Below are positions 8,076-42,877 of a DNA stretch of 64,000 nt, one piece after another. Source of the stretch: an uncultured Actinomycetota bacterium (lineage in GTDB: Bacteria; Actinomycetota; Acidimicrobiia; Acidimicrobiales; Bog-793); NCBI GenBank assembly GCA_963764805.1, contig CAVXUB010000001.1, positions 331,840 through 395,839 of the forward strand, in the 5' to 3' direction. The notes beneath the pieces are model-generated. The model ran no database searches. It was given only the letters and a program-made list of their open reading frames with translations, and was not told the origin of the DNA. Made by a program: the position numbers and the translations under genes. Position 1 is the stretch's first letter. The number at the start of each line of letters is the position of its first letter.

Positions 8076-9109
8076 TCAGTCGCGGGCCGCCGGATCGCGA
8101 AGCGCGATGAGCCCTCTGGAGACGAAGCTCTGCACAGCGACGCCGTAGCGAGGGTCGATCGCCGACTCCACGAGCCCGTCGCCGAGGTAGATCCCGACAT
8201 GGCGGGCGAGCCCCGGCCCGGGCGAGTCGCGGTCCGGCACGAGCACCCGATCCCCGGCGACGAGTTGCGAGGCGCTCACCTCGACGCCTTCTTGCTGCTG
8301 GAGCTCGCGGCGTGCGCAGGGACGACGCCGACGCTCGCCCATGCCGCCATCGTCAGCCCCGAGCTGTCGTAGTGCGGGGTTCCCGAAGCACCCCAGAGGA
8401 AGGGCTTTCCGAGCTGCGCCAGGGCGAAGCGGACGACCGCCGCATCCTCGGGTGGCGTCGCCGGCGGGAGCACGTAACCGGGAGGGGGGCCATGCCCGCC
8501 TACGGACGGCGAACCGACACCCTGTCCACACTGGCCGGGGTGGTCTGCGTGGGCGAGGACGTGGGTCACGATCTTGGCCGCCTCGGGCCATGCACGGCGG
8601 AAACGCTCCATCTCCGATGGCGGTGCGCCCTCGACCTCCTGGGCGATCGTCCAGGGCGGGCGGGACCGCCATTGCGGCCGCGCCAGGACCCGCTCGGTGA
8701 ATTCCGCCGACGCGTAGGAGGAGACCATGAGCTGCGCAGGTGTTCCCCACGTCCCCGGGCGGAGTTGAAAGAGACCGAAGCGGCCACCTGCACGGTCCAA
8801 GTTCTCCAGGTCGCTCTCGACGAGCGTCGCCACGAGCACGATGCGAGCAGCCCTCGTGTCGAACCTGGATGCCGTCATCGCCACCGACACGATGTGGTCG
8901 GCGTTCGCCGCCTGCGCGCTGGTGAGCCCTCTCACCGGACCGGTGACCGAGCACGTCCGGGCTGCCAGCGCGCCCCCACTGATGACGGCATCCGAGGCCG
9001 ACCCGTCGTCTTCCCCGCCAGCGACGGCCAGCCCGACGACGAGCACGAACGTCAGAGCTAGAGCAGCCAGGGCGGCGCCAACCAGTCCACGTGACGGGCG
9101 ATGGCTCAC
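8076..9109 (-). pseudogene. Secreted cell-wall hydrolase with C-terminal NlpC/P60 domain, frameshift near 8290
   Basis: GTG at 9109 overlaps the RepSA stop. An N-terminal TM/signal segment and a transglycosylase-like region lie in ORF 8276-9385. The NlpC/P60-like end (GKPFLWGASGTPHYDSSGL..HVGIYLGDG) continues in ORF 8076-9305. Confidence 0.65.
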
Positions 9110-10428
9110 GACGCCTCCTCGAAGCGTCCCTCGAGTCGCAACGCCAGCCACGCCTCGAGGCGTTGTTCCTGCCGGCGCTGCTCGATGCCCCGCGCCAGGC
9201 GCCTGTCGATCTCGAGGCGGAGCCCCATTCCCTCGAAGCGCCACTCGGTCGAGCCCACCTGCTCGGGATCGCCGTCCGCTTGTGCTCTCCAGGCCCGGCG
9301 GGCACGGCGCAGCGCCCCGAAGGTCGTCGAGTAGTGGCGGCTTTTCGTCAATACATGGCCTGCGAACCCGAACATATGTGCCCATCGGCCGCAGGATGCG
9401 TTCTCCTCGGACCTGCCGAGGGCGAGGGCCGTCTCGACGAGGCGGCGCACGTGGTCGGGCAGCTGCATCACCGCCAGGTGCCCTTCTCGGATGCGCCGGT
9501 CTAGCGCACCGGTCTCCTCGACGGTCTTGACCGTGTACTTGCTGACATACGAAGAAATTCTTCTGGCGTCGGCACCGGTGATCGGGTCAACTTTCAGCTG
9601 GCTGCCGAACGCCAGCACGACGTCGCCCTCTCCCACGGTCTTGCGCACGCGCACGGCCCGCACCGCCGACACGAGTGCCTGGGCGAGCAGCGCGGCGTCG
9701 ATGCCTTCGGGCGCCCCCACCTCTTCGTCGACCGAGTCAGCTCGCAGCACGCCGTGCAGGTGCACGACTCCCCGGCGCTGGAACTCGACGCACTTCACAT
9801 ACGAGAGCCGGACGCTCTTTCGAAGCTCGGACTCGCTCGTCCCCATGGCGTAGGCGAGCTGGCGGAAGGAGTAGATGGTGACCCGTCGCCACAGCTCGCT
9901 AGCCGTGGCGTTGAACAGGACACAGCCCTCGTAGTCGAAGCAGTCCGCGCAGATCGGCGTGCCGACCACGTCGTCCTCGTCGCCGTGGCCTCCGCGGCAG
10001 TGGCGCTGCCGGCCGTGCGGGCACCTGCCGGGAACACCGAGCTGGCAGGTACCGCCCCGCGCACTGTGGACAGCCCCGAAGCTCGGGCCTGTCAGTGTGA
10101 AGAACACCGCCGGGTGCTCGGTCACCGACTCGGGTACTCCCTTTCCGCCCACGAGGCCCGCGCCGACCACCTGGCGGGCGTCGCCCCGGTAGAGGGCTGC
10201 ACAGGAGGGACAGCGGCTCTTCCGCCTAGTTCCGCAGGCGACGAGCAGCACTCCGTCGGGCTCGCCACGGGTGTCGTAGCCGCCGTCACGGCCGTGCCCG
10301 ACGAGGCGGATCGGCTGGCGGCACCCGCCGGTGCGCTCGAGCCTCCACCAGAGCGAATCGAGCTCTCCCGCCCGCTCGGCGAGAAGGTCTCCCTCATCGC
10401 GCGTATCGCGATGCGTCTGGGCGATCAC
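9106..10428 (-). CDS. RepSA-type replication initiator protein
   Basis: About 440 aa from the GTG at 10428. Motifs FFTLTGPSFGAVH, a Cys-rich segment and VEFQRRGVVHLHGVLR match pSAM2 RepSA-family initiators. The N-terminal part of the 650-aa ORF in the track is read-through into the ftsK-like gene. Confidence 0.75.
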   Translation of the reverse strand: MIAQTHRDTRDEGDLLAERAGELDSLWWRLERTGGCRQPIRLVGHGRDGGYDTRGEPDGVLLVACGTRRKSRCPSCAALYRGDARQVVGAGLVGGKGVPESVTEHPAVFFTLTGPSFGAVHSARGGTCQLGVPGRCPHGRQRHCRGGHGDEDDVVGTPICADCFDYEGCVLFNATASELWRRVTIYSFRQLAYAMGTSESELRKSVRLSYVKCVEFQRRGVVHLHGVLRADSVDEEVGAPEGIDAALLAQALVSAVRAVRVRKTVGEGDVVLAFGSQLKVDPITGADARRISSYVSKYTVKTVEETGALDRRIREGHLAVMQLPDHVRRLVETALALGRSEENASCGRWAHMFGFAGHVLTKSRHYSTTFGALRRARRAWRAQADGDPEQVGSTEWRFEGMGLRLEIDRRLARGIEQRRQEQRLEAWLALRLEGRFEEAS

Positions 10429-11816
10429 TGAGCACCGCCCTCGCGGAGATGCACTGCCCGGCTGGCGATCGCCGCGATCTCGTCGTCTTCGAGGCGGAAG
10501 GTCCGGAACCGGCGCGGCACGCCGCCCTCGGCGAGGAGGTAGCCGACTCCGCGGAGAGCCGGGTCGATGTCCGCCGCGCTGGCGCCCTTGGACGCCCAGC
10601 CGCCGCCGAGGATCGTGTCTGACGCCTCCCGTGTGGTGCAGCGATGGGCAAGTCGGAACCCGAACAGATCGCGAAGAGCCGACGGGACGAGGTCGGCGGA
10701 CGGCTTCTGGGTGGCAGCCACCACGACGATGCCCGCCGCACGCGCCGCGCCACCAGGTCGCGGAGGCGCTCGGTGAAGGCCTGAGCGGCCTTCTTGTCGG
10801 GACTCGCCACGTAGAACGCGAGCTCGTCGATGACGATGAGGACCAGCCGCTCGCCGTCGCCGGGCACAACCTTGCGAGCAGAGCGCTGGCGCAGCCGCTC
10901 GTAGCGGGCCTCCATCTCTGCCTGCAGCTCGCGCAGTGCTGCGGTCGCTTCCTCCATGTCGGGCCCGACGAAGCGCGTGGCGACCGGGCGCCAGGCGTCG
11001 AGCTCGACGAGCTTGCCGTCGAAGAGCCAGATGTCGGTGTCCGGGGAGAGGGCGCCATGGGCGAGGATCACCGACAGTGACACGGACTTCCCAGAGCCGG
11101 GCTCGCCGCCAACCAGCAGATGGGTGCCCACGAGGCCGACCTCCGCCGGCTCGGCGCGCTCGTCGAGGCCGATCCTCACCGGTTGGTGGAGGGTGAAAGG
11201 TCCGGACACGGTTGGCGCAAGGGCCGGGCCGGCGAGCAGGTGCACGGGACGGATTGCCGAGCGGAGCGGCTCGGCGCGGCACCACCACCAGCTCGGCGAG
11301 GGCGGCGTCGGCCGGATCGGGGCGCAGCTGCACCGATCGCGCCCGGAGGTAGGCGGCGATCGCCCCGAGGTGCGCCTCGATCGAGGCGACGTCGCCGCCG
11401 GGCCTCACCTGCACGTGTATCGACTCGCCGTTCGGGCCTCCGGTGATCCTCCGCACGACCGGGGCGTGCAGCTCCATTGCCGCCAGCAGTGCCAGCTCCG
11501 CGCCGCGGCGCTTGTAAGAGAGCCGGACGAGGCGCCAGAGAGCACGGCGCAAGGGAGACGCGACCGATAGTGCGAGTGCAGCGGTGCAGACGAGCACCGA
11601 GCCCCGGACTGCGCCTAGGAAGTGGACGGCGCCCGCCGCCACCGCGACCGCTCCGAGCAACGGCCCGAGCGCCGGGAGACAGGTGCGGCGCCGCTTGCGG
11701 GCGAGCTCGGCCCGATCGGTGCCCGGCCGGCCGGCGGTCTGAATCGTGACGGCCGCGGTGCCCCCCCACACGAGGAGGAGCACCGCGACCGCCAACGAAA
11801 GGCGACTGTCGTGCAT
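10425..11816 (-). pseudogene. FtsK/SpoIIIE-family DNA translocase (Tra/coupling protein), frameshifted
   Basis: N-terminal TM segments. Walker A GEPGSGKS and Walker B LVLIVIDELA lie in ORF 10394-11245. The C-terminal part (IVVVAATQKPSADLVPSALRDLFGFRLAHRC) lies in the frame of ORF 10425-12410. Confidence 0.8.
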
Positions 11817-16115: not shown

Positions 16116-16140
16116 CTAGCGATCTAGCGATCTAGCGATC
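16116..16140. repeat. 3 x 8-bp tandem CTAGCGAT repeat (TAG in all three frames)
   Basis: ctagcgatctagcgatctagcgatc lies immediately upstream of the istB start. Confidence 0.9.
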
Positions 16141-16142
16141 GA

Positions 16143-16972
16143 GTGCAGCGGGCAGCTGCCGTGAACGACTCCGTCTCGCCATACGAGCAGCTGGAAGAGG
16201 ACCTCGGCTACCTGCAGCTCGGCCGTGCCGCCGAGTGCTTCGCCACCCTCTCAGAACAGGCCAGGGACCAGGGCTGGAGCCACGTCGAGTACCTGGCGGC
16301 GGTGATGGCAGAGCAGTTCCTCTGCCACCTCCAACAGACGCCTGCAGGCGCGACTCCGCTACGCCCGCTTCCCCTACCGGCGCACGATCGACTTCGACTT
16401 CTCGTTCCAGCCGAGCGTCGACGGCAAGCTCGTCGAGGATCTCGCCACCCTGCGCTTCGTCTAGAGGGCCGATCGATCTGCCTGTTGGGCCAGCCTGGCT
16501 GCGGCAAGACGCACCTCGCCGTGGCGCTCGCCACCCGTGCTGTCGAGGCTGGCTACCGCGGCTACTTCACCACCGCCGAGGACATGGTGCGGACCCTGGC
16601 ACGGGCCAGGGTGGAGGGGAACTTCACACACAAGCTCCGCAACTACACAGCACCGAGCGTCCTTGTGATCGACGACGTCGGGCCCCTGCCGATGGCCGTG
16701 AGGCGGCCGGCGCGTTCTTCCAGGTCGTCAGCCACCGCTACGACAAGCAGGCACCCACTCTGATGACGACCAACAGGGGCTTGCCCTCGTGGGGCGAGCT
16801 GTTCGGCGACGACGTCGTGGCCGCCGCCGTCCTCGACCGTCTCTTGCACCGCGCCGTCGTGTTCAACATCCGAGGTCTGACGCGGCGCGTCCGTGAGCAC
16901 GGGCCGCTCGCCGAGGCGGTGCTCACTGTCGACAAGCCACAGGACCAGACGGGCAAAGGGGGTGGTCGCTAG
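16143..16972 (+). pseudogene. istB: IS21-family IstB ATP-binding helper protein, frameshifted; no istA upstream
   Basis: LLGQPGCGKTHLAVALA (Walker A), VLVIDDVG (Walker B) and a C-terminus FFQVVSHRYDKQAPTLMTTNRGLPSWGELFGDDVVAAAVLDRLLH are spread over at least 3 frames. Confidence 0.85.
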
Positions 16973-17000: not shown

Positions 17001-17062
17001 TCGATCGCGACTTTCGCTGATCGCGGATCGCGACTTCGTGTGATCACAGATCGCGATTTTCA
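17001..17062. repeat. IS21-type terminal multi-repeat region (right end)
   Basis: Three copies of gatcgcga(c/t)tt at 17003, 17026 and 17048, directly after istB and abutting the IS3 fragment. Confidence 0.5.
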
Positions 17063-17412
17063 GTGATCGCCAAGGGCGACGACCTCTCTCGGCTCGTGCA
17101 TCACTCCGAAGGGGCATCCAGTACGTGTCGATCCGCTACACCGAGCGGCTGGCCGATGCCGGCGCGGTGGCGTCGGTCGGCTCCAAGGGCGACTCGTTCG
17201 ACAACCCTCCTGCCGAGACGATCAACGGTCTCTACAAGGCCGAGCTGATCCACCCCCGAGCGCCCTGGCGGACCGTCGAGGAGGTCGAGCTCGCCACCCT
17301 CGAGTGGGTCCACTGGTTCAATACCGTCCGCCTGCTCGAGCCGATCGGCTACGTCTCCCCGGCTGAGTTCGAGGGCAACTACTACCGTGAGAAGGCCACA
17401 TCCGTGGCATGA
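17063..17412 (+). pseudogene. IS3-family transposase, C-terminal (rve) fragment
   Basis: HSEG/GIQYVSIRYTERLADAG..GDSFDNPPAETINGLYKAELI..LATLEWVHWFNTVRLLEPIGYVSPAEFE. The 5' part is missing and the fragment begins at the IS21 end. Confidence 0.75.
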
Positions 17413-17476: not shown

Positions 17477-19400
17477 CTATGGTCCAAGCGACAAACCCGC
17501 GACATACTGACGCAAAGCGATCACATCCTGGGGAATCGATGTTTGGCCCTCCCACAACTTCACAACGTGCTGCTCCAATACCGGACCGGAACTGAGTCCA
17601 ATTGCCGGAGCCATGCTCGAGAGTGTCTGTTTCCCTAGACAACGACGCCACCACTCCGACCCCGATCGCAACAAGGCGAGCTCAGCTCTGGCGGTTTCTA
17701 ACGTCTCCCCCCATGTCGACTGTTCGACCGGATCAAATGCCGCAAGCGACTGAGCTTTCAGAGAAGTCCAATAAGTCGATAGCTCGCTCCACGTCCTGCT
17801 AGCGATCGGAACCCTACCGGCTCGAGGCATCTGGCCGGTGTGACGCGAAGCAGCATAATCGACAATCCACAGACCAGCGTACCTATCACTCACGTCCCTA
17901 ATCAACGTCAGGGCCTCGCTTGGATCTCCCCCCGCCCTCTGGAGCAATACAGCAATCGACGCCGGGTCAAGAAAGACGTTCTCGATCTCATGACAACCCA
18001 GCACATGAACACCAGCACGGGCCTCGAGCTGCAGTACATCTTCATCGCTTCGGAAGTCTCGGTCAATAACGCCGCCAACCCGAAGCTGTTCTTCCGTCTC
18101 GCCAGCTAATTCAGCGATCATCGTCAGCCGCCGCAGCACTTCGTCACAACCCCCGCCTTCCAAGAAGCGATTAGTCTCCGCTTCGCCGCACACGGCATAG
18201 AAGCGCTCCCGCTCCCGCGTCTGTCTATCTCCCTCAACGAACACAAACCTTAACCTCGCCAACGAGAAAGCGGGAGATCCAATCGCGGCCGACAGGGCAG
18301 ACAACACTGGTCTCCCGGCAAGGCGGCGAGGCCTGATAACGAGGCGAGTATCAGGCTGTCTCTCGAAAACGAAGGTTGATTCAGGGCCAGTAACCTCGAC
18401 TGCCTCCAAGGAGTGAGTCGCGAACCACACTTGGCCCTCACGTATCGTGTCGCGGCAGGAATGCCAGCCACGCTCGCAATAGGTCTGGGTTCAGGTGCAA
18501 CTCTGGTTCGTCAACGAGTAGGAGCCCTCTTTGGAGACGAAAGCGATCTACCTGACCAGTCAAAAACGCGTATCTCCCGTTCGCCACCGCTGAGGCGTGC
18601 AAAAGCCAGATCCAGGCCGGCACTGTTGAACTTCACGGTTCGTTGCGTGCCAGAGGTTTCTACGCCAACGAACATCAGGTGGGGAAGCGTCCGCTGCAGG
18701 AGGGCCCGATATTCTTCGAAAGGGTCGACGAAGACGGGGTCCGGCCCGCCGGCGGCTCGAGCAGACCGAGTATCAGCAATGAGTTGAGCGCCGGTTCGTT
18801 CTTCGATTCCTACAAGGTACTTCGTCCACTCCTCGTAGAGGGTGCGCGATGGGCGGAACGACCATTGCCTATTGAACCCCGGTGCACGATAGTCCTGGCT
18901 CCAGATCTCGACGAGTTGCTGCGGCTGGAACTGAGTCGGAGGATAGGCTCTATCAGCGTCAAGAAACAGATGCTGCGTCTCGTTGCGTGAGCGCAGCTCG
19001 TTGATCGCAGCCTGAGCTACCATCAGCGACTCGGCCTCTTCTACAAATCCTTCTGCGGTGACGCGTGCCGCCCTTCTCCGTACCTGCTGACAAGACGCAT
19101 GCGTCCGTCCCAAGACCGCCCAAGCTCATCTAGGCGTTGCTTCGTGGCGGGAAGATCGCCGATCGGTACCCGAACCGTCAATGAGAGATCGTGTGGTTCG
19201 GCGAACGGATTACCGCGATTCGTCTCGACGCCCTGCGCGATCCCAAGACCATGAGCCGCGGCCGACAGGAGTTCGAGTATTGCGCTTTTCCCGGTTCCAT
19301 TCTCGCCGACTAGACATACCAATGGCGCGTCCTCGGGAATTTCGAGATTGACGGCGCGAAGGTTTCGCCAGTTATCAATCGTAAGACGTAGCACTCGCAT
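17477..19400 (-). pseudogene. ABC/AAA ATPase fused to a DUF4435 (Toprim-like) domain; PARIS/OLD-like candidate defence gene with about 3 frameshifts
   Basis: In order: MRVLRLTIDNWRNL..LVGENGTGKSAILE (Walker A, ORF 19041-19400), LSGGEREI (ORF 18511-19113), LLLVDEPELHLNP (ORF 18438-18623), then ATHS followed by FVEGDRQTRERERFY..IDRDF..CHEIENVFLDP (ORF 17477-18430). Confidence 0.65.
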
Positions 19401-19744
19401 TGCGAGAGAAGGATAGCCGAACGGAGATCCGTGCTGCCACTAGCCAAATCTAGGCGCCGCGGCGCCGGCTTCCAATTCGGGACAGCCGATCAAGAAACTC
19501 GATGTTCCATCTCCTGCGACACGCAAGTTCAATCTCTTCACTGGAGCCAACTGGCTGACTGCGGAGACACGGCCAGGATCCTTCTCACCAAAGCAGCGAC
19601 TCGCGGCGCGCTCGGGCACTACTGACCATGAAGCGGCTCCGCAGGCCAGCAGCTCTCGAACTTCGACAGGTTCCGTCGCACCCACCCGCCCCGGTTGCGG
19701 TTCCTAGTTCATTGCGCTCGCCGTCCTCGGACGTTGACGACACT

Positions 19745-20921
19745 TAGTGGTCCGTCGCTAAAATAGCTACGTAGGCTAGAATGTGGGCATGCCGACTATC
19801 ATCGCTCCCCCGCTGGAGGTGACGGCCGAGCAGCTGTCGGAGCTTCAGGTGCTTGCCAACTCGACGGGTATGGCTTTCCGCACGGTGCGCCAGGCCAAGG
19901 CGCTGCTCGATGCGGCCGGCGGAGTGGCGAACGAGGAGATCGCCAGGCGGGCAGGCGCGTCGTCCGACACGGTGCGCTCGTGGCGCCGGCGCTTCGCCGA
20001 CAAGGGTGTGAGCGGTGTCGGCCGGATCGCAAAGGGCAGGGGCCGTAAGCCTTTTCTCCCCGATGGCACCGTGGCCGAGATAGTCCGGGTGACCCAGCAC
20101 GAACTGCCGGAGGACGGCACGACGCATTGGACCACACGGACATTGGCCGCGCGTTTCGGCGTCGGCAAGGACACGATCGCCCGCACCTGGCGGGACAACA
20201 GCCTGAAGCCCTGGCAACAGGCCACCTTCAAGCTCTCCGACGACCCGGAGTTCGAGGACAAGCTCGTCGATGTCGTCGGGCTCTATATGGACCCGCCCAA
20301 ACGGGCGGTCGTGTTCTCCTTCGACGAGAAGACCCAGGTGCCAGGCGATGGACCGCACCCAGCCGTCGCTGCCGATAAGCCCGGCCGGGCCGGCACCATG
20401 ACCCATGACTACAAGCGCAACGGCACGATCGACTTGTTCGCCGCGCTCAACGTCGGAACCGGCGAGGTGATCACCCACACCCGCAAGAGCCATACGGCGC
20501 GACGTTCTGGCCTTCTTCAAGCTCGTCGACCAATCTGTGCCCCGTCACTTGCAGATACACGTCGTGCTCGACAACCTCTCGGCCCACAAGGCGCCGGAGA
20601 TCCGGGAGTGGCTCGCCAAGCCCGCCAGAAGGGCCGCTGGCACCTCCACTACACGCCCACGTCGAGCTCGTGGGTCAACCTCGTCGAGCGATGGTTCAGG
20701 GAGCTGACGGACAAGCGCCTCCGACGGGCCGCTTCTCAAGCGTCGCATCGCTCGTCGCTGCCATCGAGCTGTGGGCGACCCACTGGAACACCGGCCCCAA
20801 GCCCTTCGTCTGGCACAAGACCGCCGAAGAGATCATCGAGAAAGTGTCTCGGGCTCGGGCGGCACTTTATGATGCCAAGGCGAGCGGCGAGGTCCTAAGT
20901 CAAATCCGCGACGCACCACTA
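19745..20921 (+). mobile_element. IS630-family insertion sequence (1177 bp)
   Basis: The ends TAGTGGTCCGTCGCTAAAATAGC (left) and GTCAAATCCGCGACGCACCACTA (right) form imperfect inverted repeats flanked by TA. The transposase gene lies inside. Confidence 0.85.
19789..20921 (+). pseudogene. IS630-family DDE transposase, frameshifted
   Basis: N-terminal HTH region, DEKTQV..THDYKRNGTIDLFAALNVGTGEV, then HLHYTPTSSSWVNLVERWFRELTDKRLRR and FVWHKTAEEIIEKV in shifted frames. Confidence 0.8.
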
Positions 20922-20927
20922 GCTAGG

Positions 20928-21884
20928 CTAACCCCCGGTAGGCGTATCGATCCCTGACCAGAGCACGTAGCGGCTCTTGCGGTCCGCTGCCATGCTTAGC
21001 AGTGACTTTAACATGGCCTTTGCGTCGTCGATGCTGTGGTCGTCATCGCTAAAAGTCACGTCGACGAACTCACCGAGCAGGGTAGTCTGTCCTCTGCGAA
21101 CATGTGACATCAGAAGAGCGTTGTCGAACAACACAATTGGCTGATACGACTCCGAGCTAAGCAGGGCCTTATTCAGTGCGAGCGTGTAGATGCCAGCGTT
21201 CTTATGCACCTGGAGCAGCTCAAGCATGTCGTTATCCGCGACTTCTTCGGCTGTCACCAGGAACACTCGGGTATGGCTGACACCAGGATGCTCTCGGGCA
21301 TGGTCGACGTATCGCATGAAGTATCCCCACCACTCCGGCTGACGCCAGTGAGCTAGGCCGAGTGCAGCCACGGCGGTCACGGCGGCTTGAGAGGTATCGA
21401 GAGCGCTGTTGACGAGGCGGAACTCCTCCTGGCGGTTCCGACAACGGAAGTGCCCGTTTCCGATGGCTATTGTCGCGGTGGTTTCTTCGTGGAGCCTCGC
21501 CACAACTTGCTGATACATGAACGGCTGACGATGTTGTCGAGCTGCACGTGCCGAAGCGAGAGCACGTTGGACAGAAGACATCAGTTCTGGGTGGTCAGCG
21601 AGCTCGAGAGCAGTTGGCAGCAGTTCCTGCTCGAGACGGTCCAAGCGAGTCTGTAGTAACCGGCTGGCGCGATCCGAGTGGCTTCTCACCGCAATGACCA
21701 GTGCGGCAACGACGCTAACGAGTGCGGCCAGTATACGTAGGCGGACGCTATCGCTCGGAAAGAGTGCTCCGGTGACGCCCACCGCGAGGGACAGGCCAAT
21801 CGCCATTAGTTCGACGCGACTAAATCCCTGAGGCGGGTCGCCGGCCACTCGGGCTGACTTGGCTGTCGCAAGGTTATGGTTCAT
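20928..21884 (-). CDS. Two-TM protein with uncharacterised C-terminal alpha/beta-like domain
   Basis: ATG at 21884, 13 nt after the DUF4392 stop. TM1 is VELMAIGLSLAVGVTGALF and TM2 is LRILAALVSVVAALVIAV, followed by a coiled segment and an unassigned domain. GC is lower than the background. Confidence 0.5.
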   Translation of the reverse strand: MNHNLATAKSARVAGDPPQGFSRVELMAIGLSLAVGVTGALFPSDSVRLRILAALVSVVAALVIAVRSHSDRASRLLQTRLDRLEQELLPTALELADHPELMSSVQRALASARAARQHRQPFMYQQVVARLHEETTATIAIGNGHFRCRNRQEEFRLVNSALDTSQAAVTAVAALGLAHWRQPEWWGYFMRYVDHAREHPGVSHTRVFLVTAEEVADNDMLELLQVHKNAGIYTLALNKALLSSESYQPIVLFDNALLMSHVRRGQTTLLGEFVDVTFSDDDHSIDDAKAMLKSLLSMAADRKSRYVLWSGIDTPTGG

Positions 21885-21897
21885 TGGTGGCCTCGCT

Positions 21898-22818
21898 TTA
21901 CTGGGGGCTGCTGGTTGCCAAGGCTCGGACATCACGAAGCACCGCCTCATGAATATCCTCGGAGAGGCCGTCGACCGAGCGTGTCGGCTGTCGGGTGATG
22001 CCATCGACCGCAGGACCTTCGGTCAGAAGGGCTGAAAGGACCATCTCATGCATCGTCGGTTCAAGTGCGGTGAGAATCGGCGTGATCCACCGTGGCTTGG
22101 CCACGGCGAGGGCGGCTAGCAGGCCGAAGGCCCCCCAGTTGGAGCAACCGGCAACGATCAGCGCATCACACGAAACACGGCAGTGGATGACCTCGCCCAA
22201 TGGGACACTGGAAGCCACAAGATTATGAGGCAGATTGCCCATTCCAATTTCATTGCCGCCGTCGCCCACCGAGATGCGACACCACGCGAGCTGCTCAAAG
22301 AGAACGTGCAGCAGCCCGGTCACTGCGGTCCGATCTGTTCCCCGCATGCTGCGAACGACACCATCGGCCGCAGGACCCAACCGTTCGATCGAAATAACGT
22401 GACTTGTTTGCCTCAGCGGAACGACCGGTAGTCTGTTCCAAACGACCTCATCAGTTTGTGCCGCTCCAGGCGGAAGATACCCCACTGGTGCGTCAGCGCG
22501 CGACGCGGTAACGGCGGCCTCCGCGGCGTGAAAGGTCAGGTCGTCGGTCAAAACGACGGTCGGCACGCCTATGGCACTGAGTGCGAATGCCAGCAGAGCC
22601 GCTCCTATGGGACCGTCGGTCTCTGCCGCAGGCGGCTCGCCTTCAGGAATAAAGCAACCGGTCATGATCGCGACGGATACCTCGTCGCTCTGCGTCAGAG
22701 CCTCAACGGCGCGGACGAGGCTTCCGCGAGCGAACTTCGCCATTGCCGCTATTCCCCGTCCCGGATCTCGAGCGCAACGACTTTCAATCGCCATAATTGC
22801 GTCACTCTGATCAGCCAT
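21898..22818 (-). CDS. DUF4392 (D-glutamate cyclase-like) domain protein
   Basis: About 306 aa from the ATG at 22818. Motifs TGCFIP..ETDGPIGA and SVGDGGNEIGMGN are characteristic of the DUF4392 family as I recall it. Confidence 0.6.
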   Translation of the reverse strand: MADQSDAIMAIESRCARDPGRGIAAMAKFARGSLVRAVEALTQSDEVSVAIMTGCFIPEGEPPAAETDGPIGAALLAFALSAIGVPTVVLTDDLTFHAAEAAVTASRADAPVGYLPPGAAQTDEVVWNRLPVVPLRQTSHVISIERLGPAADGVVRSMRGTDRTAVTGLLHVLFEQLAWCRISVGDGGNEIGMGNLPHNLVASSVPLGEVIHCRVSCDALIVAGCSNWGAFGLLAALAVAKPRWITPILTALEPTMHEMVLSALLTEGPAVDGITRQPTRSVDGLSEDIHEAVLRDVRALATSSPQ

Positions 22819-22833
22819 CTCAGCGCGATACTC

Positions 22834-23028
22834 AGTGGTGCGTCGCGGATTTGACTTGGGACCTCGCCGCTCGCTTGGCCTGGCGCACCGTGCGGAAAGC
22901 CATACCCGTCGAGTTGGCAAGCACCTGAAGCTCCGACAGCTGCTCGGCCGTCACCCCCAGCGGGGGAGCGATGATCATCGGCATACCCACATTCTAGCCT
23001 ACACAGCTATTTTAGCGACGGACCACTA
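22834..23028 (-). mobile_element. 195-bp MITE-like internal-deletion derivative of the neighbouring IS630, inverted
   Basis: 22834-22873 matches the reverse complement of about 20881-20921. The remainder matches the reverse complement of about 19745-19897 with a few mismatches. The outer end is ..GGACCACTA. Confidence 0.85.
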
Positions 23029-23294: not shown

Positions 23295-24471
23295 CTACCT
23301 GTTGCCCTTGGCGCGGTTGTGCGTCTGGCAGAGCATCGTCAGGTTCGACAGGTCCGTGCCTCCGCCCTTCGACCAGGCGGTGACGTGGTCGGCGTCCATC
23401 TCGTTCAGCTTGTAGATCCGGGTCTTGTTGCTGTCGGTCGCCGAGCGCGCACAGCGGGCAGTTCGAGACGCCCTTGGCCTTCGCCTTCTGGGTCTGCTGC
23501 TCGTACGCCGGCGCGCTTGGTCTTCTCGTCGAACAGCCGGACGTCGAGCAGTTGCGGTGCGGTCTTGCCGCCAAGCAGGTACTCGTAGATGCCTTTGGCG
23601 CTCGTGGACGTCGGGATCAGCGCGGAGCTCGTCGACGGCCTTGTCGATCTCAGCGGCGTTGTAGGACGTTCGAGTGGTAGGTCTCGTAGAGCCGCCCCCA
23701 CTCCAGGCCGCGCATCTCCTTGTCAGGGGTCGGGTGAAGACGCTGCCGATCCAGTCGATGACCGAGGTGAAGTAGGTCTTTAAAGCCGGCGATGTCGGTG
23801 TCGCCGCGGTGCTGCGCAAGGTAGGCGTCGATGCTGATTCCCTGGATGACGCGACCCAGTCGAGCGCCACCTCGAGGATCTCCTGGCGCTTCGGGTCGCC
23901 TTTGATGATACGACGGACCACTTCTGCATGTTGGCGTTGCTCGAGTTCGAGTACTCGGCCTTCGCCTTGGTGACGAACGGGCCGGAGTAGATCGCGTTGA
24001 GCAGCTCCTGCTTGTTGAGCGGTACGCCGGCGATGTTGATGGTCTGGAACCACTCCTTGATCTCGGTCTCGGTGCCCTCGCATTCGTAGATGTCAAGCTT
24101 GCTGGCGAGGATCTTCTGCTGGTCGTCCTTCGGCAGCGACGAGAAGATCTGCTCCTTGCCCGACGACTTTGATGGCGAACTTGCCGGTGACGAACCGGCC
24201 GAAGCTGGTGATGCGCTGCTGGCCGTCGAGGACCTCGAGAGCGCGCCGCCCTTTCGACGTTGAAGTAGATCAGCCCGAGCGGGTAGCCCTTGAGCAGTGA
24301 GTCGATGACGGCGACGTCCCGCTTGCCGTCGCCGTAGATGTAGTGGCGCTGGAACTCCGGCTGGATGACGAGCCTCCCGCCGAGGCCGAACAGCCCCTTG
24401 CCTTCAAGCTCGTTGTAGACGAAGCCGTCGAGGACCTGCTCGACGGTGTAGTGCTGCAGGTTGGTCTTCAC
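23295..24471 (-). pseudogene. DUF262 (ParB-like) + HNH nuclease, GmrSD-like, multiply frameshifted
   Basis: The N-terminus has [38 protein letters not shown] (ORF 23650-24471). The C-terminus has EMDADHVTAWSKGGGTDLSNLTMLCQTHNRAKGN (ORF 23295-24083). Middle parts lie in other frames. Confidence 0.7.
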
Positions 24472-24495
24472 TAGTCGTCCTTCCGGGCCGGATCG

Positions 24496-25701
24496 CTAGA
24501 TGCGCTTGAAGGGAACGTATGGCCGTGGGTGGTAGAGAAAGAGCTTTCGACGCCCGGACTGTTCGCAGCGGTACCACCGGCCGCGTAGTAGTCGAGCGAC
24601 ACGCTTTTGACGCCAAGGGCTCAACCCCATACGCTTCGGTCTGCTCCATGTCTTCCGTGTTGCCGAGATCTCGAACTGGTCTGGGTTGTACTTGTCGAGG
24701 AACGAGATCGGAACACCCATCACACCGTCGTAGTCGCTCGGGATGGCATCGGTACGAACGGCACCTCGATAGCGTCGTAGTTGTCGTACTTCTGGTAGCT
24801 CGACGCCGCCGAGCTGCCTTGATGAGTCTTGTTGAACTTGATGTTGTCGGCCATGGTCATCAGCTGAAGGGGCTCGTGCCGGCGTCCATGGTCGATGTTC
24901 GTGAACCAACGAATTCCCTTGACTCGGATGTACTTGTTCCCGTGCTCGTCGACGGATAGCCGAGCCTGCTGCGTCCAGCGGGCATAATGCGAGGGAACCC
25001 TCGGAACGCGCGGACACCAGCGTTGAGATGCTCGGCCCTTACCACAGCGGTTGGCCTTGATGTGCGGGAAGATCTCGTTGTAGGTGATGGCGTTCATGTT
25101 GCCGATCACGGAGAACTGGCAGTCGGCGTCGAACAGCCAGTTCATGAAGGGCCGGAACAAGCTGAACGGCGGGTTGGTGATGACGATGTCGGCCTCGTCG
25201 CGCAGCGCCGTCACCTCGGCGCTGCGGAAGTCGCCGTCGCCTTCGAGGTAGTCCCACTGGAGGTCGTCGATGTTGACGACGCCGTCGCCGTTGATGTCCT
25301 GCGCTTCCAGGACGAACTTCTTGCCGTTGGCACGCGGTCCTTGGTGCCGTCGAACGCCGGGCTTCTGGTCTCGAAGAGGGTCGGCTGGTAGTCGAGCGAC
25401 CGGAGTTGCTGTCAGGGGCGTACGACGTCGAGATCAGCTTCTTGAGGCCGTAGTCCGTGAAGTGCAGCGCGAAGAACTTGGTGAAGTTGCACCACTCGGG
25501 GTCGTCACACGGCAGCAGGATTACCTTGTCGCGGAACACGTCGGGGTCGTACTCGAGGTAGGCGTTCATCTCGCGCTCGATGTCCGCCCACTGCGTGTAG
25601 AACTCGTCGTTCTTGGCCGCCTTCGCCGCGACCAGGTCGGTGTTCTTAACCCCCGCCCGTGCGGTCTTCGGGATTGGGTCGTTCTCCAGGGTCTCCGTCA
25701 C
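24496..25701 (-). pseudogene. EcoRI-methylase-like N6-adenine DNA methyltransferase, multiply frameshifted
   Basis: AAKNDEFYTQWADIEREMNAYLEYDPDVFRDKVILLPCDDPEWCNFTKFF (ORF 25039-25752), DIVITNPPFSLFRPFMNWL (ORF 24720-25214) and the C-terminus in ORF 24496-25017. The start could be the GTG at 25701 or the ATG at 25752. Confidence 0.75.
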
Positions 25702-30272: not shown

Positions 30273-30644
30273 CCGTCTGTGGAGAGTCCCTGAGCTGCCA
30301 GGTCCCCTAACACGGCCATGTGCACAGGTGGTTGTGGGCGGCTGTCCGGTCGGATCAGCCCCGGGCTACGTCTTTCGCCGCAGGCAACTCACCCGCGACC
30401 GGACCCGCTTGCCAGCGGTCCGACATGGCATCGACCGACGCCGACCAGGACGCGAGTGCCGACCATGTCGCGCGCTGAAGTCCCACTGCCCGCTTCGGCA
30501 TCTGACGCGAAGTCAGATTTCGCCCAGGCCGCGGCTCCTGGTCGCGAGCCACGGACGACCCAACAACGACCCAACAAGGGCGTCTCACGGCGTCTCCCGG
30601 CGTCACTCCCGTCGGCGAAGACGTCGCGGCGGTCCCCTGCGACC
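30273..30644. repeat. 372-bp direct repeat, copy 1
   Basis: Aligns by eye with 34547-34919, with about 15 differences. The first ~200 bp are nearly identical. It contains the tandem cgacccaacaa x2 at 30557-30578. Confidence 0.9.
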
Positions 30645-32603: not shown

Positions 32604-32936
32604 TCGGCGCCTGCCACTGACAGCAGATCCCAAGCACAACTCGCAGCGGCAGCAACCAACGAGGACACGTCGTGCCTGGCGGACGCTCGGAACCCCCGTA
32701 AACGTTGACGACGCACATCAGACCACACGGGCTCACGGGGGAAGGTAGCGGGTGGAACACCCGGGAATCTTCTCGACACACTGCCATCGCGCCACGACGA
32801 GAGGGGTGTTCCGAGGGGGACGGCCCTGAGGGGGTCTGTCCGGCCCTCCCACAACGGGTGCACAGGGAGTTCACTTGGTACAGACCGGACCGAGCGGCCG
32901 CCCGACAGGAGGTTGCATGACCGAGGAGAACAGCAC

Positions 32937-33963
32937 GTGCGTGGAGTAGTGATGGAGGCACCGGGGATCATTCATGTCGAGAGGCGCGAAGACCCGAAGA
33001 TCATCGATTCGACGGATGCGGTCATCCGCCTGACGGCGACGTGCATCTGCGGTTCGGATCTGTGGCCATACCGAGGGGTCGAGCACGTCGACCACATGCC
33101 GATGGGCCACGAGTACGTCGGTGTGGTCGAGGAGATCGGGTCCGCCGTGAAGACCCTGAAGGTCGGCGACTTCGTCGTCGGCTCCTTCGTGATCTCCGAC
33201 AACACCTGCGAGATCTGCCAGGCCGGGTACCCGTCGAAGTGCGTGAACGCTGAGTTCGTGTCGATGACGATCGGAACCCAGGCGGAGCGCGCCCGCATCC
33301 CGCACGCCGACGGCACCCTCGTCGCCACCCCCGGCCAGCCGGGCGCCGGATCTCATCCCCTCCCTGCTGGCCGCTTCTGACGTGCTCGGTACCGGCTGGT
33401 TCGCCGCCGAGGCCGCCGAGGTCGGCCCCGGCAAGACCGTTGGCGTCGTCGGTGACGGTGCCGTCGGCCTGATGGCCGTCCTCGCCTCGAAGCAGCTCGG
33501 GGCCGAGCGGATCGTCGCCATGTCTCGCCACGCCGACCGTCAGAAGTTCGCCATCGAGTTCGGCGCCACCGACATCGTCGAGGAGCGCGGCGAGGCGGGT
33601 GTGGCCAAGATCAAGGAGATGACCGGTGGGCTGGGAGCCCACAGCGTCATCGAAGCCGTGGGGACGGACGAGTCGATGCGGCAAGCGATCGCATCGACTC
33701 GCGGTGGGGGGCATGTCGGGTACGTCGGGGTCTCCCATGAAGGCTCCACGATTGCCGCCGACGAGCTGTTCTTCGCTGAGGTCCACCTGTTCGGTGGCCC
33801 AGCCCCCGTTCGGCGGCTGCTCCCGAAGCTGATCCAGCTCATATGGGACCGCAAGATGGACCCAGGAAGGGTCTTCGACCTCACCCTGCCGCTCGAAGAG
33901 GCCGCCGAGGGCTACCGAGCAATGGACGAGCGGCGAGCCATCAAGGTCCTGCTCACCCTGTAG
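32937..33963 (+). pseudogene. Zinc-dependent alcohol dehydrogenase (MDR family), 1 frameshift near 33340
   Basis: GTG at 32937 lies 8 nt after GAGGAG. CGSDLWPYRG..GHEYVGVVEEIG and GVVGDGAVGL are split between ORFs 32913-33380 and 33382-33963. Confidence 0.85.
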
Positions 33964-34546: not shown

Positions 34547-34919
34547 CCGTCTGCGGAGAGTCCCTGAGCTGCCAGGTCCCCTAACACGGCCATGTGCACA
34601 GGTGGTTGTGGGCGGCTGTCCGGTCGGATCAGCCCCGGGCTACGTCTTTCGCCGCAGGCAACTCACCCGCGACCGGACCCGCTTGCCAGCGGTCCGACAT
34701 GGCATCGACCGACGCCGACCAGGACGCGAGTGCCGACCATGTCGCGCGGTTGAAGTCCCACTGCCCGCATCGGCATCTGACGCGAAGTCAGATTGCGCCC
34801 AGGCCGCGGCTCCTGGTCGCGAGCCAGGGACGACCCAACAGCGACCCAACAAGTGCGTCTCACGGCGTCTCACGGCGTCACTACCCGTCGGCGAAGACGG
34901 CACGGTAGTCCCTGCGACC
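34547..34919. repeat. 372-bp direct repeat, copy 2 (57 bp before attR)
   Basis: See copy 1. It contains cgacccaacag cgacccaacaag at 34831-34852. Confidence 0.9.
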
Positions 34920-41602: not shown

Positions 41603-42877
41603 GTGCCGGTAGCCGATCCGACCACCGCCGTTGAGACCGTTTTCCGGATGGAGTTCCCGCGCGTCGTCGCCACGTTGACGCGGATGACCGGTGACATCGA
41701 CCTTGCCGAGGAGCTGGCACAGGAGGCGCTCGTCGACGCCCTCCGTCAGTGGCCACGCGACGGCGTGCCGGGCAATCCCGGCGCCTGGCTCACCGCGGTC
41801 GGTAAGCGCAAGGCGGTCGACCGCTTCCGGCGCGATCGGAAGTTGGCCGAGAAGTACACCCTGCTCATGAACACCCTCGAGCGAGACAGCACGAGCCCCG
41901 AAACGCTTCCCGAGATAGGCGAGGACACGCTCGACGACGACCGGCTGCGCCTCATCTTCGTCGCCTGCCACCCCCTCCTGCCGGTCGTATCGCGGGTTGC
42001 GCTCACGCTGCGGCTCGTGGCCGGCCTCACGACGGCCGAGATCGCCCGTGCCTACGTCGTCCCCGAACCGACGATCGCCCAGCGCATCGTCCGCGCCAAG
42101 CGGACGATCGCCGACGCAGCCGTCCCCTTCGAAGTCCCCGAACCCGAGGAGCGCGCGGCGCGCCTCGGTTCGGTACTCGAAGTCATCTACCTGATCTTCA
42201 ACGAGGGCTACTCGGCCACCGGAGGCGACGACTGGACGCGTCCCGAGCTGTGCGCCGAGGCACTCCGACTGGGCCGGGTTCTCGCCGCCACCGTCCCCTC
42301 CGAGCCGGAGGTGCAGGGGCTCGTGGCGCTGATGGAGTTCAACTCCTCGCGACTCGGCGCCCGTGCCGGCCCCGGAGGCGCCGTCGTGGTGCTCGCCAAG
42401 CAGGATCGGCGTCGATGGGACCGCTTGCTGATCTCCCGGGGCGAGGCGGCGCTGCGACGGGCCTTCGACCTGTCCCCTCGACGAGGCCCGTACACGCTGC
42501 AGGCGGCCATCGCCGGTTGCCACGCCCGTTGCTTCCGTTCCGAGGAGACAGACTGGGGCGAGGTAGTCGCCCTCTACGAGGAGCTCGTCTCGGTCATGCC
42601 GTCCCCCATCGTCGAGCTCAACCGGGCCGTGGCGATCTCGATGGCATCCGGCGCCGCCGCCGCGCTGCCGTTGGTCGAGCAGCTCCTCGAGCTCGGCGCC
42701 ATCGAGCGCTACCACCTCCTACATGCCGTACGGGGCGATCTTCTCGAGAAGCTCGGACAGCACGCCGAAGCAGCCGCCGCCTTCGAGCGGGCGGCAGGGC
42801 TCGTGCAGAACGCCGCCGAGAAGGCCTTCTTGAGCCAGCGAGCCGCCGAGAATGCTGCACTGTCCGCCGTCCCATGA
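41603..42877 (+). CDS. ECF-like sigma factor with extended C-terminal helical domain (type commonly paired with YciI)
   Basis: 424 aa. Sigma regions 2 and 4 (DLAEELAQEALVDALRQW; LTTAEIARAYVVPEPTIAQRIVRAKR) plus a ~230-aa C-terminal extension. Confidence 0.8.
   Translation: MPVADPTTAVETVFRMEFPRVVATLTRMTGDIDLAEELAQEALVDALRQWPRDGVPGNPGAWLTAVGKRKAVDRFRRDRKLAEKYTLLMNTLERDSTSPETLPEIGEDTLDDDRLRLIFVACHPLLPVVSRVALTLRLVAGLTTAEIARAYVVPEPTIAQRIVRAKRTIADAAVPFEVPEPEERAARLGSVLEVIYLIFNEGYSATGGDDWTRPELCAEALRLGRVLAATVPSEPEVQGLVALMEFNSSRLGARAGPGGAVVVLAKQDRRRWDRLLISRGEAALRRAFDLSPRRGPYTLQAAIAGCHARCFRSEETDWGEVVALYEELVSVMPSPIVELNRAVAISMASGAAAALPLVEQLLELGAIERYHLLHAVRGDLLEKLGQHAEAAAAFERAAGLVQNAAEKAFLSQRAAENAALSAVP

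What the first reader, a model, noticed from the sequence alone, without database searches (positions are those of the whole stretch)
17477..19400. Single-polypeptide ABC-ATPase + DUF4435/Toprim-like gene (fused PARIS/OLD-like defence candidate), flanked by IS elements
Joining four ORF fragments gives a ~640-aa protein. It has an N-terminal ABC/SMC-type ATPase (Walker A GENGTGKS, signature LSGGE, Walker B LLLVDEPELHLNP, H-loop ATHS). The C-terminal domain carries FVEGDxxxxERxFY, IDRDF and HEIENVFLDP, which are the DUF4435 signatures as I recall them. In PARIS, the ATPase (AriA) and the DUF4435 nuclease (AriB) are usually separate genes, with fusions reported. OLD-family nucleases have the analogous ATPase-Toprim order. 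The gene has lower GC than its surroundings and sits between an IS3/IS21 remnant and an IS630. It carries about 3 frameshifts, so it may be inactive, or the assembly may be wrong.
Basis: partly seen in the sequence, partly recalled or inferred. Interest (0 to 1): 0.65.

Follow-up and report, generated by a model that had tools for sequence, protein, structure and literature searches.

The report
Frameshifted fused PARIS-type antiphage gene
This is a copy of an already-known kind of one-protein bacterial antiviral gene (an ATP-driven sensor fused to a Toprim nuclease, the "fused PARIS/AriAB" type), sitting among insertion sequences on a mobile island and broken in this assembly by three tiny insertions; it is an ordinary find, not a new system.

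Summary
On the minus strand, 19400..17477, four ORF pieces join into a 640-aa protein that aligns end to end with more than 110 intact 615-700-aa homologues. The homologues all have an N-terminal ABC ATPase (AAA_15/AAA_21) and a C-terminal DUF4435/Toprim domain.

The repaired protein passes the published PARIS detection thresholds. Its best PADLOC model is fused AriAB. It aligns with a core fused AriAB across the domain junction (HHalign 98.9%), and the acidic Toprim motifs match. Fused PARIS is already in the literature, so the kind is known. This clade is a divergent, uncharacterised branch, with an ATPase closest in structure to PtuA.

The three lesions are insertions (+2, +1, +1 nt). All 109 strongly conserved residues are kept and there is no in-frame stop. 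So this is either a very recent pseudogene or a set of consensus errors. A sulfatase and an alcohol dehydrogenase elsewhere in the window are also split, and all three insertions lie within 2 nt of a CGCG. Reads are needed to decide.

IS21 and IS3 remnants and an IS630 do flank the gene, and its GC is low (0.57-0.59). Interest is low.

The parts
17477..19400 (-). Whole disrupted fused ABC-ATPase + DUF4435/Toprim gene (ariAB-like). It encodes 640 aa once three frame corrections are made. The range includes the stop codon.
19041..19400 (-). ORF piece 1 (119 aa): N-terminus of the ATPase. Walker A GENGTGKS lies at 19284-19307.
   Evidence: AAA_23 36 bits and AAA_15 32.5 bits; coordinates
19061..19083 (-). 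Junction J1. The window carries 2 nt more than relatives L001 and L003, in a variable linker. It overlaps one of the gene's only two ACGCGT sites (19061).
18572..19062 (-). Coding part of ORF piece 2 (the ORF itself is 18511-19113): the helical insertion of the ATPase and the ABC signature LSGGE (18580-18594).
18571..18571 (-). Junction J2: a single inserted A. The window reads GAGAT[A]CGCGTT where the three relatives have GAGAT-CGC or GAGAT-TGC. The inserted base itself creates an ACGCGT site.
18457..18570 (-). Coding part of ORF piece 3 (the ORF itself is 18438-18623): Walker B LLLVDEPE (18501-18524) and the D-loop region.
   Evidence: AAA_21 20.8 bits
18456..18456 (-). Junction J3: a single inserted G. 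The window reads TTCCT[G]CCGCGAC where the three relatives have T(T/C)CCT-(C/T)CG.
17477..18430 (-). ORF piece 4 (317 aa). [quoted passage not shown] The Toprim core motifs are E389-G-D at 18197-18247, D446-x-D448 at 18053-18070 and H-E471-x-E473-N at 17975-17995.
   Evidence: DUF4435 34.7 bits. PADLOC AriB 4.9e-8. AlphaFold2 pLDDT 91.1 with strand-E, strand-DxD and strand-HExEN in Toprim order. Motifs align with a core AriAB.
19401..19744 (-). 344-nt upstream non-coding stretch between the gene's ATG and the end of IS630. No sigma-70-like promoter was found on the gene's strand.
19745..20920 (+). IS630-family element, upstream of and divergent from the gene. It has terminal inverted repeats and a TA duplication. 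Its transposase is spread over several frames, with at least 4 frame switches.
   Evidence: HTH_32/DDE_3 hits
17044..17412 (+). Truncated IS3-family transposase tail (rve_2/rve_3), ending 65 nt from the gene's stop codon.
   Evidence: 75-80% nucleotide identity to IS3 transposases
16128..16972 (+). IS21 IstB helper-ATPase remnant, in two frames. No IstA lies upstream.
   Evidence: IstB_IS21 91.5 bits

Best explanation
[quoted passage not shown] It belongs to a divergent, mostly actinobacterial clade that databases label only 'AAA family ATPase'. It lies in a low-GC mosaic of mobile DNA next to a pSAM2-type integrative element.

How it would work is inferred from the two-gene E. coli PARIS system. 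The ATPase module senses a phage-encoded trigger, such as an anti-restriction protein, in an ATP-dependent way. It then licenses the two-metal Toprim nuclease to cut host tRNAs, which stops translation and aborts the infection. Because the two modules are covalently joined here, activation must be a conformational or oligomeric switch within the same protein, not release of a free AriB. That step is inference only.

As written in this assembly, the gene is interrupted by three small insertions (+2, +1 and +1 nt) and cannot make the full protein. I put about 55% on a real, very recent inactivation and about 45% on consensus or sequencing indels.
For: Identity as one gene:
- 579 homologues at E <= 1e-5. 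The top 120 nearly all carry AAA_15/AAA_21 plus DUF4435 in a single 615-700-aa protein.
- Full-length collinear alignment, with J2 and J3 repaired exactly into invariant columns.
- All 109 positions that are >=97% conserved in 112 intact homologues are kept in the window copy.

Family assignment:
- Pfam: AAA_21 50.9, AAA_15 42.6 and DUF4435 33.0 bits, all above the thresholds used to define PARIS (PMC9122126).
- The PADLOC top hit is AriAB at 5.7e-27, and the match spans the inter-domain junction.
- The nuclease half alone hits only AriB and AriAB.
- HHalign against a core fused AriAB (itself 729 bits on PADLOC AriAB) gives 98.9% probability and E = 3.4e-17 over 277 columns. LSGGERE, DEPELHL, VEG, IDRD and E-x-EN line up.

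Defence context of intact relatives:
- One sits inside a type I R-M operon beside SIR2, Mrr and a Schlafen-like helicase.
- One sits beside DarT-NADAR, an integrase and RepSA.

Structure: confident models, with pLDDT 91-92.

Disruption:
- The insertions were mapped against three relatives.
- Indel density is about 1.6 per kb here, against about 0.14 per kb in Pfam-verified chromosomal genes. Poisson P = 0.003.
- The neighbouring IS3 and IS21 elements are truly truncated, which shows real decay in this neighbourhood.
Against: - No antiphage activity, trigger or tRNA target has been shown for this clade. The mechanism is borrowed from E. coli PARIS.
- The DUF4435 score is only modestly above its cut-off.
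- Foldseek found no solved or viral structure matching the nuclease domain at E <= 1e-3.
- PDB sequence searches did not return AriA or AriB.
- By structure the ATPase is closest to PtuA.

Against real pseudogenisation:
- There is no missense change at conserved sites and no in-frame stop, despite three indels.
- All three lesions are insertions.
- All three lie <=2 nt from a CGCG (post hoc P about 4e-4).
- Single-copy metabolic genes, a sulfatase and a Zn-ADH, are also split.
Confidence: 0.85

Rival explanations
1. The gene is intact and functional in the organism. The three frameshifts are consensus or sequencing errors in the assembly, for example motif- or methylation-linked indels in long-read data, or an unpolished stretch among repeats.
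For: - All three lesions are insertions of 1-2 nt.
- 0 of 109 conserved residues are changed, and there is no in-frame stop. That is unexpected if indels had built up by neutral decay alongside substitutions.
- All three lie <=2 nt from a CGCG. Two coincide with the only ACGCGT sites in the gene.
- A sulfatase (50673-52956) and a Zn-ADH (32709-33963) are also split between frames. The sulfatase lesion is also a +1 next to a CGCG.
Against: - Indel density here is about 11 times that of verified chromosomal genes in the same window (P = 0.003).
- None of the sites is a long homopolymer.
- The CGCG link does not generalise. Only 1 of 4 mapped IS630 frame switches is at a CGCG, and the ACGCGT at 42236 lies in an intact gene.
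- The adjacent IS3 and IS21 elements are truly truncated, so the neighbourhood is really decaying.
Confidence: 0.42
2. It is not PARIS. It is a separate ABC-ATPase + Toprim defence family, akin to PtuA, OLD, Gabija or AbiL/RloAB, that merely shares Pfam domains with PARIS. Its trigger, target and activation mode would be its own.
For: - It scores only 93-108 bits on the PADLOC AriAB profile, where a core member scores 729 bits.
- The best solved relatives of the ATPase are PtuA chains: Foldseek 5e-12 and profile E = 3e-10.
- AriA and AriB were not recovered from PDB.
- The ATPase is compact, about 345 aa with one long helix, where AriA is 55 kDa with a coiled coil (PMC11464382).
Against: - The nuclease half hits only AriB and AriAB among the defence models, and only DUF4435 in Pfam.
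- HHalign ties it to a core AriAB across both domains at 98.9%.
- The core AriAB itself also fails to hit AriB in PDB by sequence, so those misses say little.
- PARIS is defined operationally by exactly this domain pair.
Confidence: 0.12
3. The four fragments are parts of two or more unrelated genes, or they are deliberately expressed through programmed frameshifting.
For: None beyond the presence of separate ORFs.
Against: - More than 110 intact homologues cover all four pieces in order.
- Each relative has a continuous frame at J2 and J3.
- Three shifts of mixed sign with no slippery heptamers do not look like programmed frameshifting.
Confidence: 0.01

Closest known systems
Fused single-gene PARIS (AriAB; AAA_15/AAA_21 + DUF4435 fusion; Rousset et al. 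2022, PMC9122126)
   Same: - Same domain order in one polypeptide.
- Passes the published Pfam thresholds.
- Best PADLOC model.
- HHalign 98.9% to a core member, with the signature, Walker B, VEG, IDRD and E-x-EN motifs aligned.
- Found in defence-island and mobile-element contexts.
   Different: - A divergent branch: 93-108 bits, against 729 bits for a core member.
- About 25% identity to plasmid-borne AriAB proteins.
- This particular copy is frameshifted.
- No fused PARIS protein has had its mechanism characterised, as far as the papers read here show.
Two-gene E. coli B185 PARIS (AriA hexamer + AriB; PMC11464382, PMC10802264, PMC12409363)
   Same: An ABC ATPase paired with a DUF4435 Toprim nuclease. 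An acidic set comparable to AriB E26, D88, E90 and E122 is present in the same order and with similar spacing: E389, D446, D448 and E471/E473.
   Different: - The two modules are covalently fused, so the 'release of AriB from an AriA scaffold' step cannot apply.
- The ATPase is about 345 aa, without the large coiled-coil insertions.
- No direct sequence or Foldseek match to the solved chains was obtained.
Septu and retron PtuA ABC ATPases
   Same: They are the closest solved structures and sequences for the ATPase half: Foldseek E = 5e-12 and profile E = 3e-10.
   Different: PtuA works with a separate HNH nuclease, PtuB. Here the effector is a fused DUF4435/Toprim domain with no HNH.
OLD-family nucleases, Gabija GajA and the retron Eco8 effector (ATPase-Toprim fusions)
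   Same: The same ATPase-then-Toprim order in a single chain, so they are the likely mechanistic analogues for activation within one protein.
   Different: Their PADLOC models match only the ATPase part (Old 39 bits, GajA 34 bits). The nuclease half does not hit the OLD or GajA Toprim models.
RloAB / AbiL-type ATPase + Toprim pairs embedded in type I R-M loci
   Same: One intact relative (P0076) lies between hsdS and hsdM of a type I R-M operon. This echoes the R-M-embedded RloAB noted in PMC10802264.
   Different: RloB/AbiLii is a different Toprim-like family. Pfam returned only DUF4435 for this domain, and the BFVD RloB-like hit was not significant.

Membership tests
PARIS (fused AriAB) | ABC ATPase domain reaching AAA_15 >= 32 bits or AAA_21 >= 27 bits (detection rule of Rousset et al. 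2022) | tested here: met
   The repaired protein scores AAA_21 50.9 bits and AAA_15 42.6 bits. The rule is quoted.
PARIS (fused AriAB) | DUF4435 (PF14491) domain at >= 27 bits | tested here: met
   34.7 bits on the exact window ORF 17477-18430. 33.0 bits on the repaired protein. PADLOC AriB 31.4 bits on the nuclease half alone.
PARIS (fused AriAB) | Both domains in one polypeptide, collinear with known fused AriAB proteins | tested here: met
   PADLOC AriAB PDLC02981 at 92.7 bits, spanning residues 219-494. HHalign 98.9% and E = 3.4e-17 against the B. gladioli AriAB across the junction. More than 110 intact fused homologues.
PARIS (fused AriAB) | Toprim metal-binding acidic residues conserved (AriB E26, D30, D88, E90, E122 equivalents) | tested here: met
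   E389, D446, D448, E471 and E473 are invariant in 76 sequences and present in the window copy. They align with E, DxD and ExE of a core AriAB. They follow strands 1, 3 and 4 in the AlphaFold2 model. The residue-by-residue match to E. coli AriB itself is inferred from order and spacing only.
PARIS (fused AriAB) | Fold matches the solved AriA and AriB structures | tested here: inconclusive
PARIS (fused AriAB) | Uninterrupted reading frame, so a functional gene | tested here: not met
   Three frame-breaking insertions, at 19061-19083, 18571 and 18456. Whether they are real needs the reads.
PARIS (fused AriAB) | Phage defence triggered by an anti-restriction protein, with tRNA cleavage and translation arrest | not testable with these tools
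   This is experimental. It has been shown only for two-gene E. coli PARIS (PMC11464382, PMC12409363).
OLD / Gabija GajA (ATPase-Toprim) | OLD-type Toprim nuclease domain | tested here: not met
   The Old and GajA models match only the ATPase region. The nuclease half alone hits neither. The only OLD-family chain in PDB aligns with residues 277-358.
Septu (PtuAB) | PtuA ATPase together with an HNH nuclease, PtuB | tested here: not met
   The ATPase resembles PtuA. But the effector is a fused DUF4435 domain, and no adjacent HNH partner is conserved in the relatives' loci.

The most novel reading that the evidence does not exclude
This compact, PtuA-like-ATPase + DUF4435 clade is a mechanistically distinct single-chain system. 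It is abundant in Actinomycetota, Chloroflexota and some Gammaproteobacteria, and is annotated only as 'AAA family ATPase'. It would be activated within one protein, by a conformational or oligomeric switch rather than by release of AriB. It might have its own trigger and RNA target, so it would not simply be 'PARIS in one piece'. Secondarily, the three insertions next to CGCG, two of which create ACGCGT sites, could reflect a real site-linked mutational process that silences a toxic defence gene, rather than sequencing error.
Probability: 0.15. Interest if true: 0.45.

Novelty: new member of a known kind. Interest (0 to 1): 0.2.

Why it matters
Taken at face value, this adds one more, probably dead, copy of a known defence gene type to a mobile island. 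That matters mainly for annotation. Gene callers split it into fragments, and fragment 1 (AAA_15 32.5 bits) plus fragment 4 (DUF4435 34.7 bits) could be miscalled as an intact two-gene PARIS.

The broader point is modest. A large, intact, uncharacterised clade of fused PARIS-like proteins exists in actinomycetes, including Mycobacterium. It would be a good test case for how a fused ATPase-Toprim system is switched on without releasing its nuclease.

The pattern of insertions only, no missense decay and a CGCG association is also a useful flag for assembly quality in this record.

Tried and rejected
I modelled the exact C-terminal ORF and an intact homologue instead.
- **PDB sequence and profile searches** never returned AriA or AriB. 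I therefore could not align directly to the solved AriB. I used a core fused AriAB from a B. gladioli plasmid as a bridge.
- **The genome-contig scan** found only two relatives and not the source genome.
- **Exact-protein look-ups.** They showed that three window proteins are on record from a 1.04-Mb NCBI contig, but the contig could not be fetched. The organism remains 'a high-GC actinomycete with a pSAM2-type element'.
- **tblastn against phage records** found nothing.
- **The idea that all frameshifts in the window follow a CGCG/ACGCGT motif** was tested and rejected as a general rule. It holds for ariAB and the sulfatase only.
- **Two unrelated genes, or programmed frameshifting,** were rejected on the homologue alignments.

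Full report
**1. What is in the sequence**

On the minus strand between 19400 and 17477 there are four ORFs in three frames: 19400-19041, 19113-18511, 18623-18438 and 18430-17477.
- Walker A GENGTGKS
- ABC signature LSGGE
- Walker B LLLVDEPELHLNP
- H-loop ATHS
- FVFVEGDRQTRERERFY
- IDRDF
- CHEIENVFLDP

Joining the pieces with one added base and two removed bases gives a 640-aa protein with no internal stop.

**2. It is one gene**

The best was 70% identical over 100% of the query (E = 7e-291), and a partial one was 85% identical. Nearly all of the top 120 are 615-700-aa single polypeptides with precomputed AAA_15/AAA_21 plus DUF4435 domains.

In the multiple alignment the repaired junctions J2 (LSGGEREIAFLTGQ) and J3 (LAFLRDTI.EGQVWFATHS) fall in invariant columns. 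J1 falls in a variable linker.

**3. The lesions**

I aligned the gene at the nucleotide level to three relatives, L004, L003 and L001.

| Junction | Window position | Change | Local sequence |
|---|---|---|---|
| J1 | 19061-19083 | +2 nt relative to L001 and L003 | variable linker |
| J2 | 18571 | +A | GAGAT[A]CGC |
| J3 | 18456 | +G | TTCCT[G]CCG |

None of the three is in a long homopolymer.

**4. Family assignment**

*Pfam.* On the repaired protein AAA_21 scores 50.9 bits, AAA_15 42.6 bits and DUF4435 33.0 bits, against a gathering cut-off of 27. The exact window C-terminal ORF alone gives DUF4435 at 34.7 bits and nothing else.

*PADLOC.* The best of 5027 defence models is fused AriAB (PDLC02981, 5.7e-27, 92.7 bits). 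The matched stretch, residues 219-494, crosses the inter-domain junction. The nuclease half alone, 277 aa of exact window sequence, hits only AriB (4.9e-8) and AriAB. It does not hit OLD, GajA or any other Toprim model.

*Published definition.* Rousset et al. 2022 define PARIS operationally as AAA_15 >= 32 bits or AAA_21 >= 27 bits, plus DUF4435 >= 27 bits. [quoted passage not shown] Later papers repeat that AriA and AriB are 'occasionally' or 'sometimes' fused (PMC11464382; PMC12409363). The repaired protein satisfies that rule.

*Calibration.* A plasmid-borne B. gladioli protein annotated 'DUF4435 domain-containing protein' scores 729 bits end to end on PADLOC AriAB PDLC02982. The window's family scores only 93-108 bits on PDLC02981 and 52-79 bits on PDLC02982. 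It is therefore a divergent branch, not a core member.

*Direct comparison.* An HHalign comparison of the family alignment with that core AriAB gives 98.9% probability and E = 3.4e-17 over 277 columns, running from the ABC signature through the linker into the nuclease. The motifs pair up as follows:

| This family | Core AriAB |
|---|---|
| LSGGERE | MSDGERV |
| VDEPELHL | IDEPELHL |
| FVFVEG | VVFVEG |
| GGC | GSC |
| GGVIDRDFR | YGLIDRDRR |
| HEIENVF | AEVENLF |

**5. Structure**

The window's own 317-aa ORF, modelled with a 76-sequence alignment, gives pLDDT 91.1 and pTM 0.87. The order of elements is:
- strand 61-65, followed by E66-G-D68
- helix, strand, helix
- strand 117-122, followed by D123-x-D125
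- helix, strand
- H147-E148-x-E150-N
- a helical bundle

That is the Toprim arrangement of a Glu after strand 1 and DxD after strand 3. This assignment rests on established knowledge of the fold (Aravind et al. 1998, cited in the PARIS papers). It mirrors the order of AriB's E26, D88, E90 and E122.

An intact homologue, P0004, models at pLDDT 92.4. Its ATPase half is closest to the PtuA chains of Septu and of retrons Ec78, Ec83 and Eco7 (Foldseek E = 5e-12), and no AriA appears in the top 50.

**6. Context**

*The window.* To the left is a pSAM2-type RepSA gene (9106-11067, 406 bits). This marks an actinomycete integrative element. It is followed by a two-frame IstB remnant without IstA (16128-16972) and a truncated IS3 tail (17044-17412). 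The gene's stop codon is 65 nt from that tail.

A complete IS630 lies 345 nt upstream of the ATG, at 19745-20920, with inverted ends and a TA duplication. Its transposase is scattered over frames.

GC is 0.57-0.59 across the gene, against 0.66-0.73 in the element to the left. Further right lie a gene for a D-glutamate-cyclase-like protein, an HNH/DUF262 gene and an EcoRI-family methyltransferase gene.

*Intact relatives sit in defence or mobile contexts:*
- P0076 lies between hsdS and hsdM of a type I R-M operon, next to SIR2, Mrr and a Schlafen-like helicase.
- P0005 lies beside an IS3, DarT-NADAR, an integrase and RepSA.
- P0001 lies near an integrase.
- P0028 lies in a tract of small hypothetical genes in Mycobacterium sp. 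Aquia_213.

No partner gene is conserved, which fits a self-contained single-gene system.

**7. Is the gene really broken?**

*Evidence for real inactivation.* The indel density in the gene is about 1.6 per kb. Pfam-verified chromosomal genes of the same window carry 2 indels in about 14 kb. Poisson P(>=3) = 0.003. The adjacent IS elements are truly truncated.

*Evidence for artefact:*
- The window copy keeps 109 of 109 positions that are >=97% conserved in 112 intact homologues.
- It has no in-frame stop.
- All three lesions are insertions.
- Each lies <=2 nt from one of only 14 CGCG sites in the gene (7.3% of positions qualify; post hoc P about 4e-4).
- J1 and J2 coincide with the only two ACGCGT sites in the gene. 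In J2 the inserted A itself creates the site.
- A sulfatase (Pfam positions 1-200 in one frame, 201-301 in another) and a Zn-dependent alcohol dehydrogenase (ADH_N and ADH_zinc_N in different frames) are also split. The sulfatase lesion looks like a +1 next to a CGCG.

*Limits of the motif link.* It is not general. Only one of four mapped IS630 frame switches is at a CGCG, those switches include deletions, and the ACGCGT at 42236 lies in an intact sigma-factor gene.

I cannot settle this without reads. I put about 55% on a real, very recent pseudogene and about 45% on an artefact.

**8. Mechanism (inferred)**

In two-gene PARIS, an AriA hexamer holds AriB inactive. Binding of a phage anti-restriction protein such as Ocr, together with ATP, releases AriB. 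AriB then dimerises and cleaves tRNA-Lys(UUU), tRNA-Thr and tRNA-Asn, which arrests translation (PMC11464382, PMC10802264, PMC12409363).

For the fused protein, three things are shown here:
- The ATPase catalytic motifs are conserved.
- The Toprim acidic set is conserved.
- Relatives sit in defence-island contexts.

What is inferred is that trigger sensing by the ATPase licenses the nuclease within the same protein, since release is impossible. OLD and GajA are the nearest analogues in architecture.

**9. Verdict**

Both the observation and the interpretation are correct. The kind is already known. This is a divergent, uncharacterised member that is broken in the assembly. Interest is low. The practical value lies in annotation hygiene and in flagging assembly quality.

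Noticed in passing
window 19745-23028: A full IS630 (19745-20920) and a 195-nt internally deleted, inverted derivative of it (22834-23028, made of the left 155 nt plus the right 41 nt, 96-98% identical) bracket two genes. One is a 358-aa ORF with no Pfam hit (20928-22004, minus strand). The other is a D-glutamate-cyclase-like (GLUCM-like_C) ORF (21898-22950, minus strand). The arrangement looks like a composite transposon.
   Followed up: partly
window 23295-25433: An HNH/DUF262-type gene and an EcoRI-family adenine methyltransferase gene, a second defence or R-M-like module. They are 78-81% identical at the nucleotide level to Pseudarthrobacter, Rhodococcus and Gordonia plasmids. The methylase ORF covers only Pfam positions 96-269 of 345, so it may also be frameshifted.
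   Followed up: partly
window 50673-52956 and 32709-33963: Two apparently single-copy metabolic genes are each split over two frames: a sulfatase, with the break near 51455 at TTCGCG[C]CGG, and a Zn-dependent alcohol dehydrogenase, with the break near 33300. This suggests either residual indel errors in the assembly or a pseudogene-rich genome.
   Followed up: partly
window 18456, 18571, 19061-19083 (also 51455): All three ariAB insertions lie <=2 nt from a CGCG. Two coincide with the only ACGCGT sites in the gene. ACGCGT occurs 7 times in the window, against about 22 expected from base composition. This is unexplained, and it does not hold for the IS630 frame switches.
   Followed up: yes
window 9106-11067: A pSAM2-type replication initiator, RepSA (406 bits). 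The left part of the window is an actinomycete integrative and conjugative element. An intact relative of the target gene (P0005) also lies next to a RepSA/integrase element.
   Followed up: partly
window 30273-30610 and 34547-34885: A 338-nt direct repeat (100% identical over 202 nt, then one 1-nt indel, then 95% over 135 nt) brackets a 4.3-kb segment that carries the SDR, TetR and split ADH genes.
   Followed up: no
window 17003-17071: Three tandem copies of a 23-nt unit (GATCGCGACTTTCGCTGATCGCG) lie between the IstB remnant and the IS3 tail.
   Followed up: no
L004 1768-1793: The closest relative (P0010, 85% identical, on a 1975-nt metagenome contig) is itself cut at 464 aa. The rest continues in another frame, with a 5-nt length difference from the window, so broken copies of this gene may be common.
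   Followed up: no
window 19041-19400 and 17477-18430: As separate gene calls, fragment 1 reaches AAA_15 at 32.5 bits (cut-off 32.1) and fragment 4 reaches DUF4435 at 34.7 bits. Rule-based defence finders could therefore report a false intact two-gene PARIS here.
   Followed up: partly
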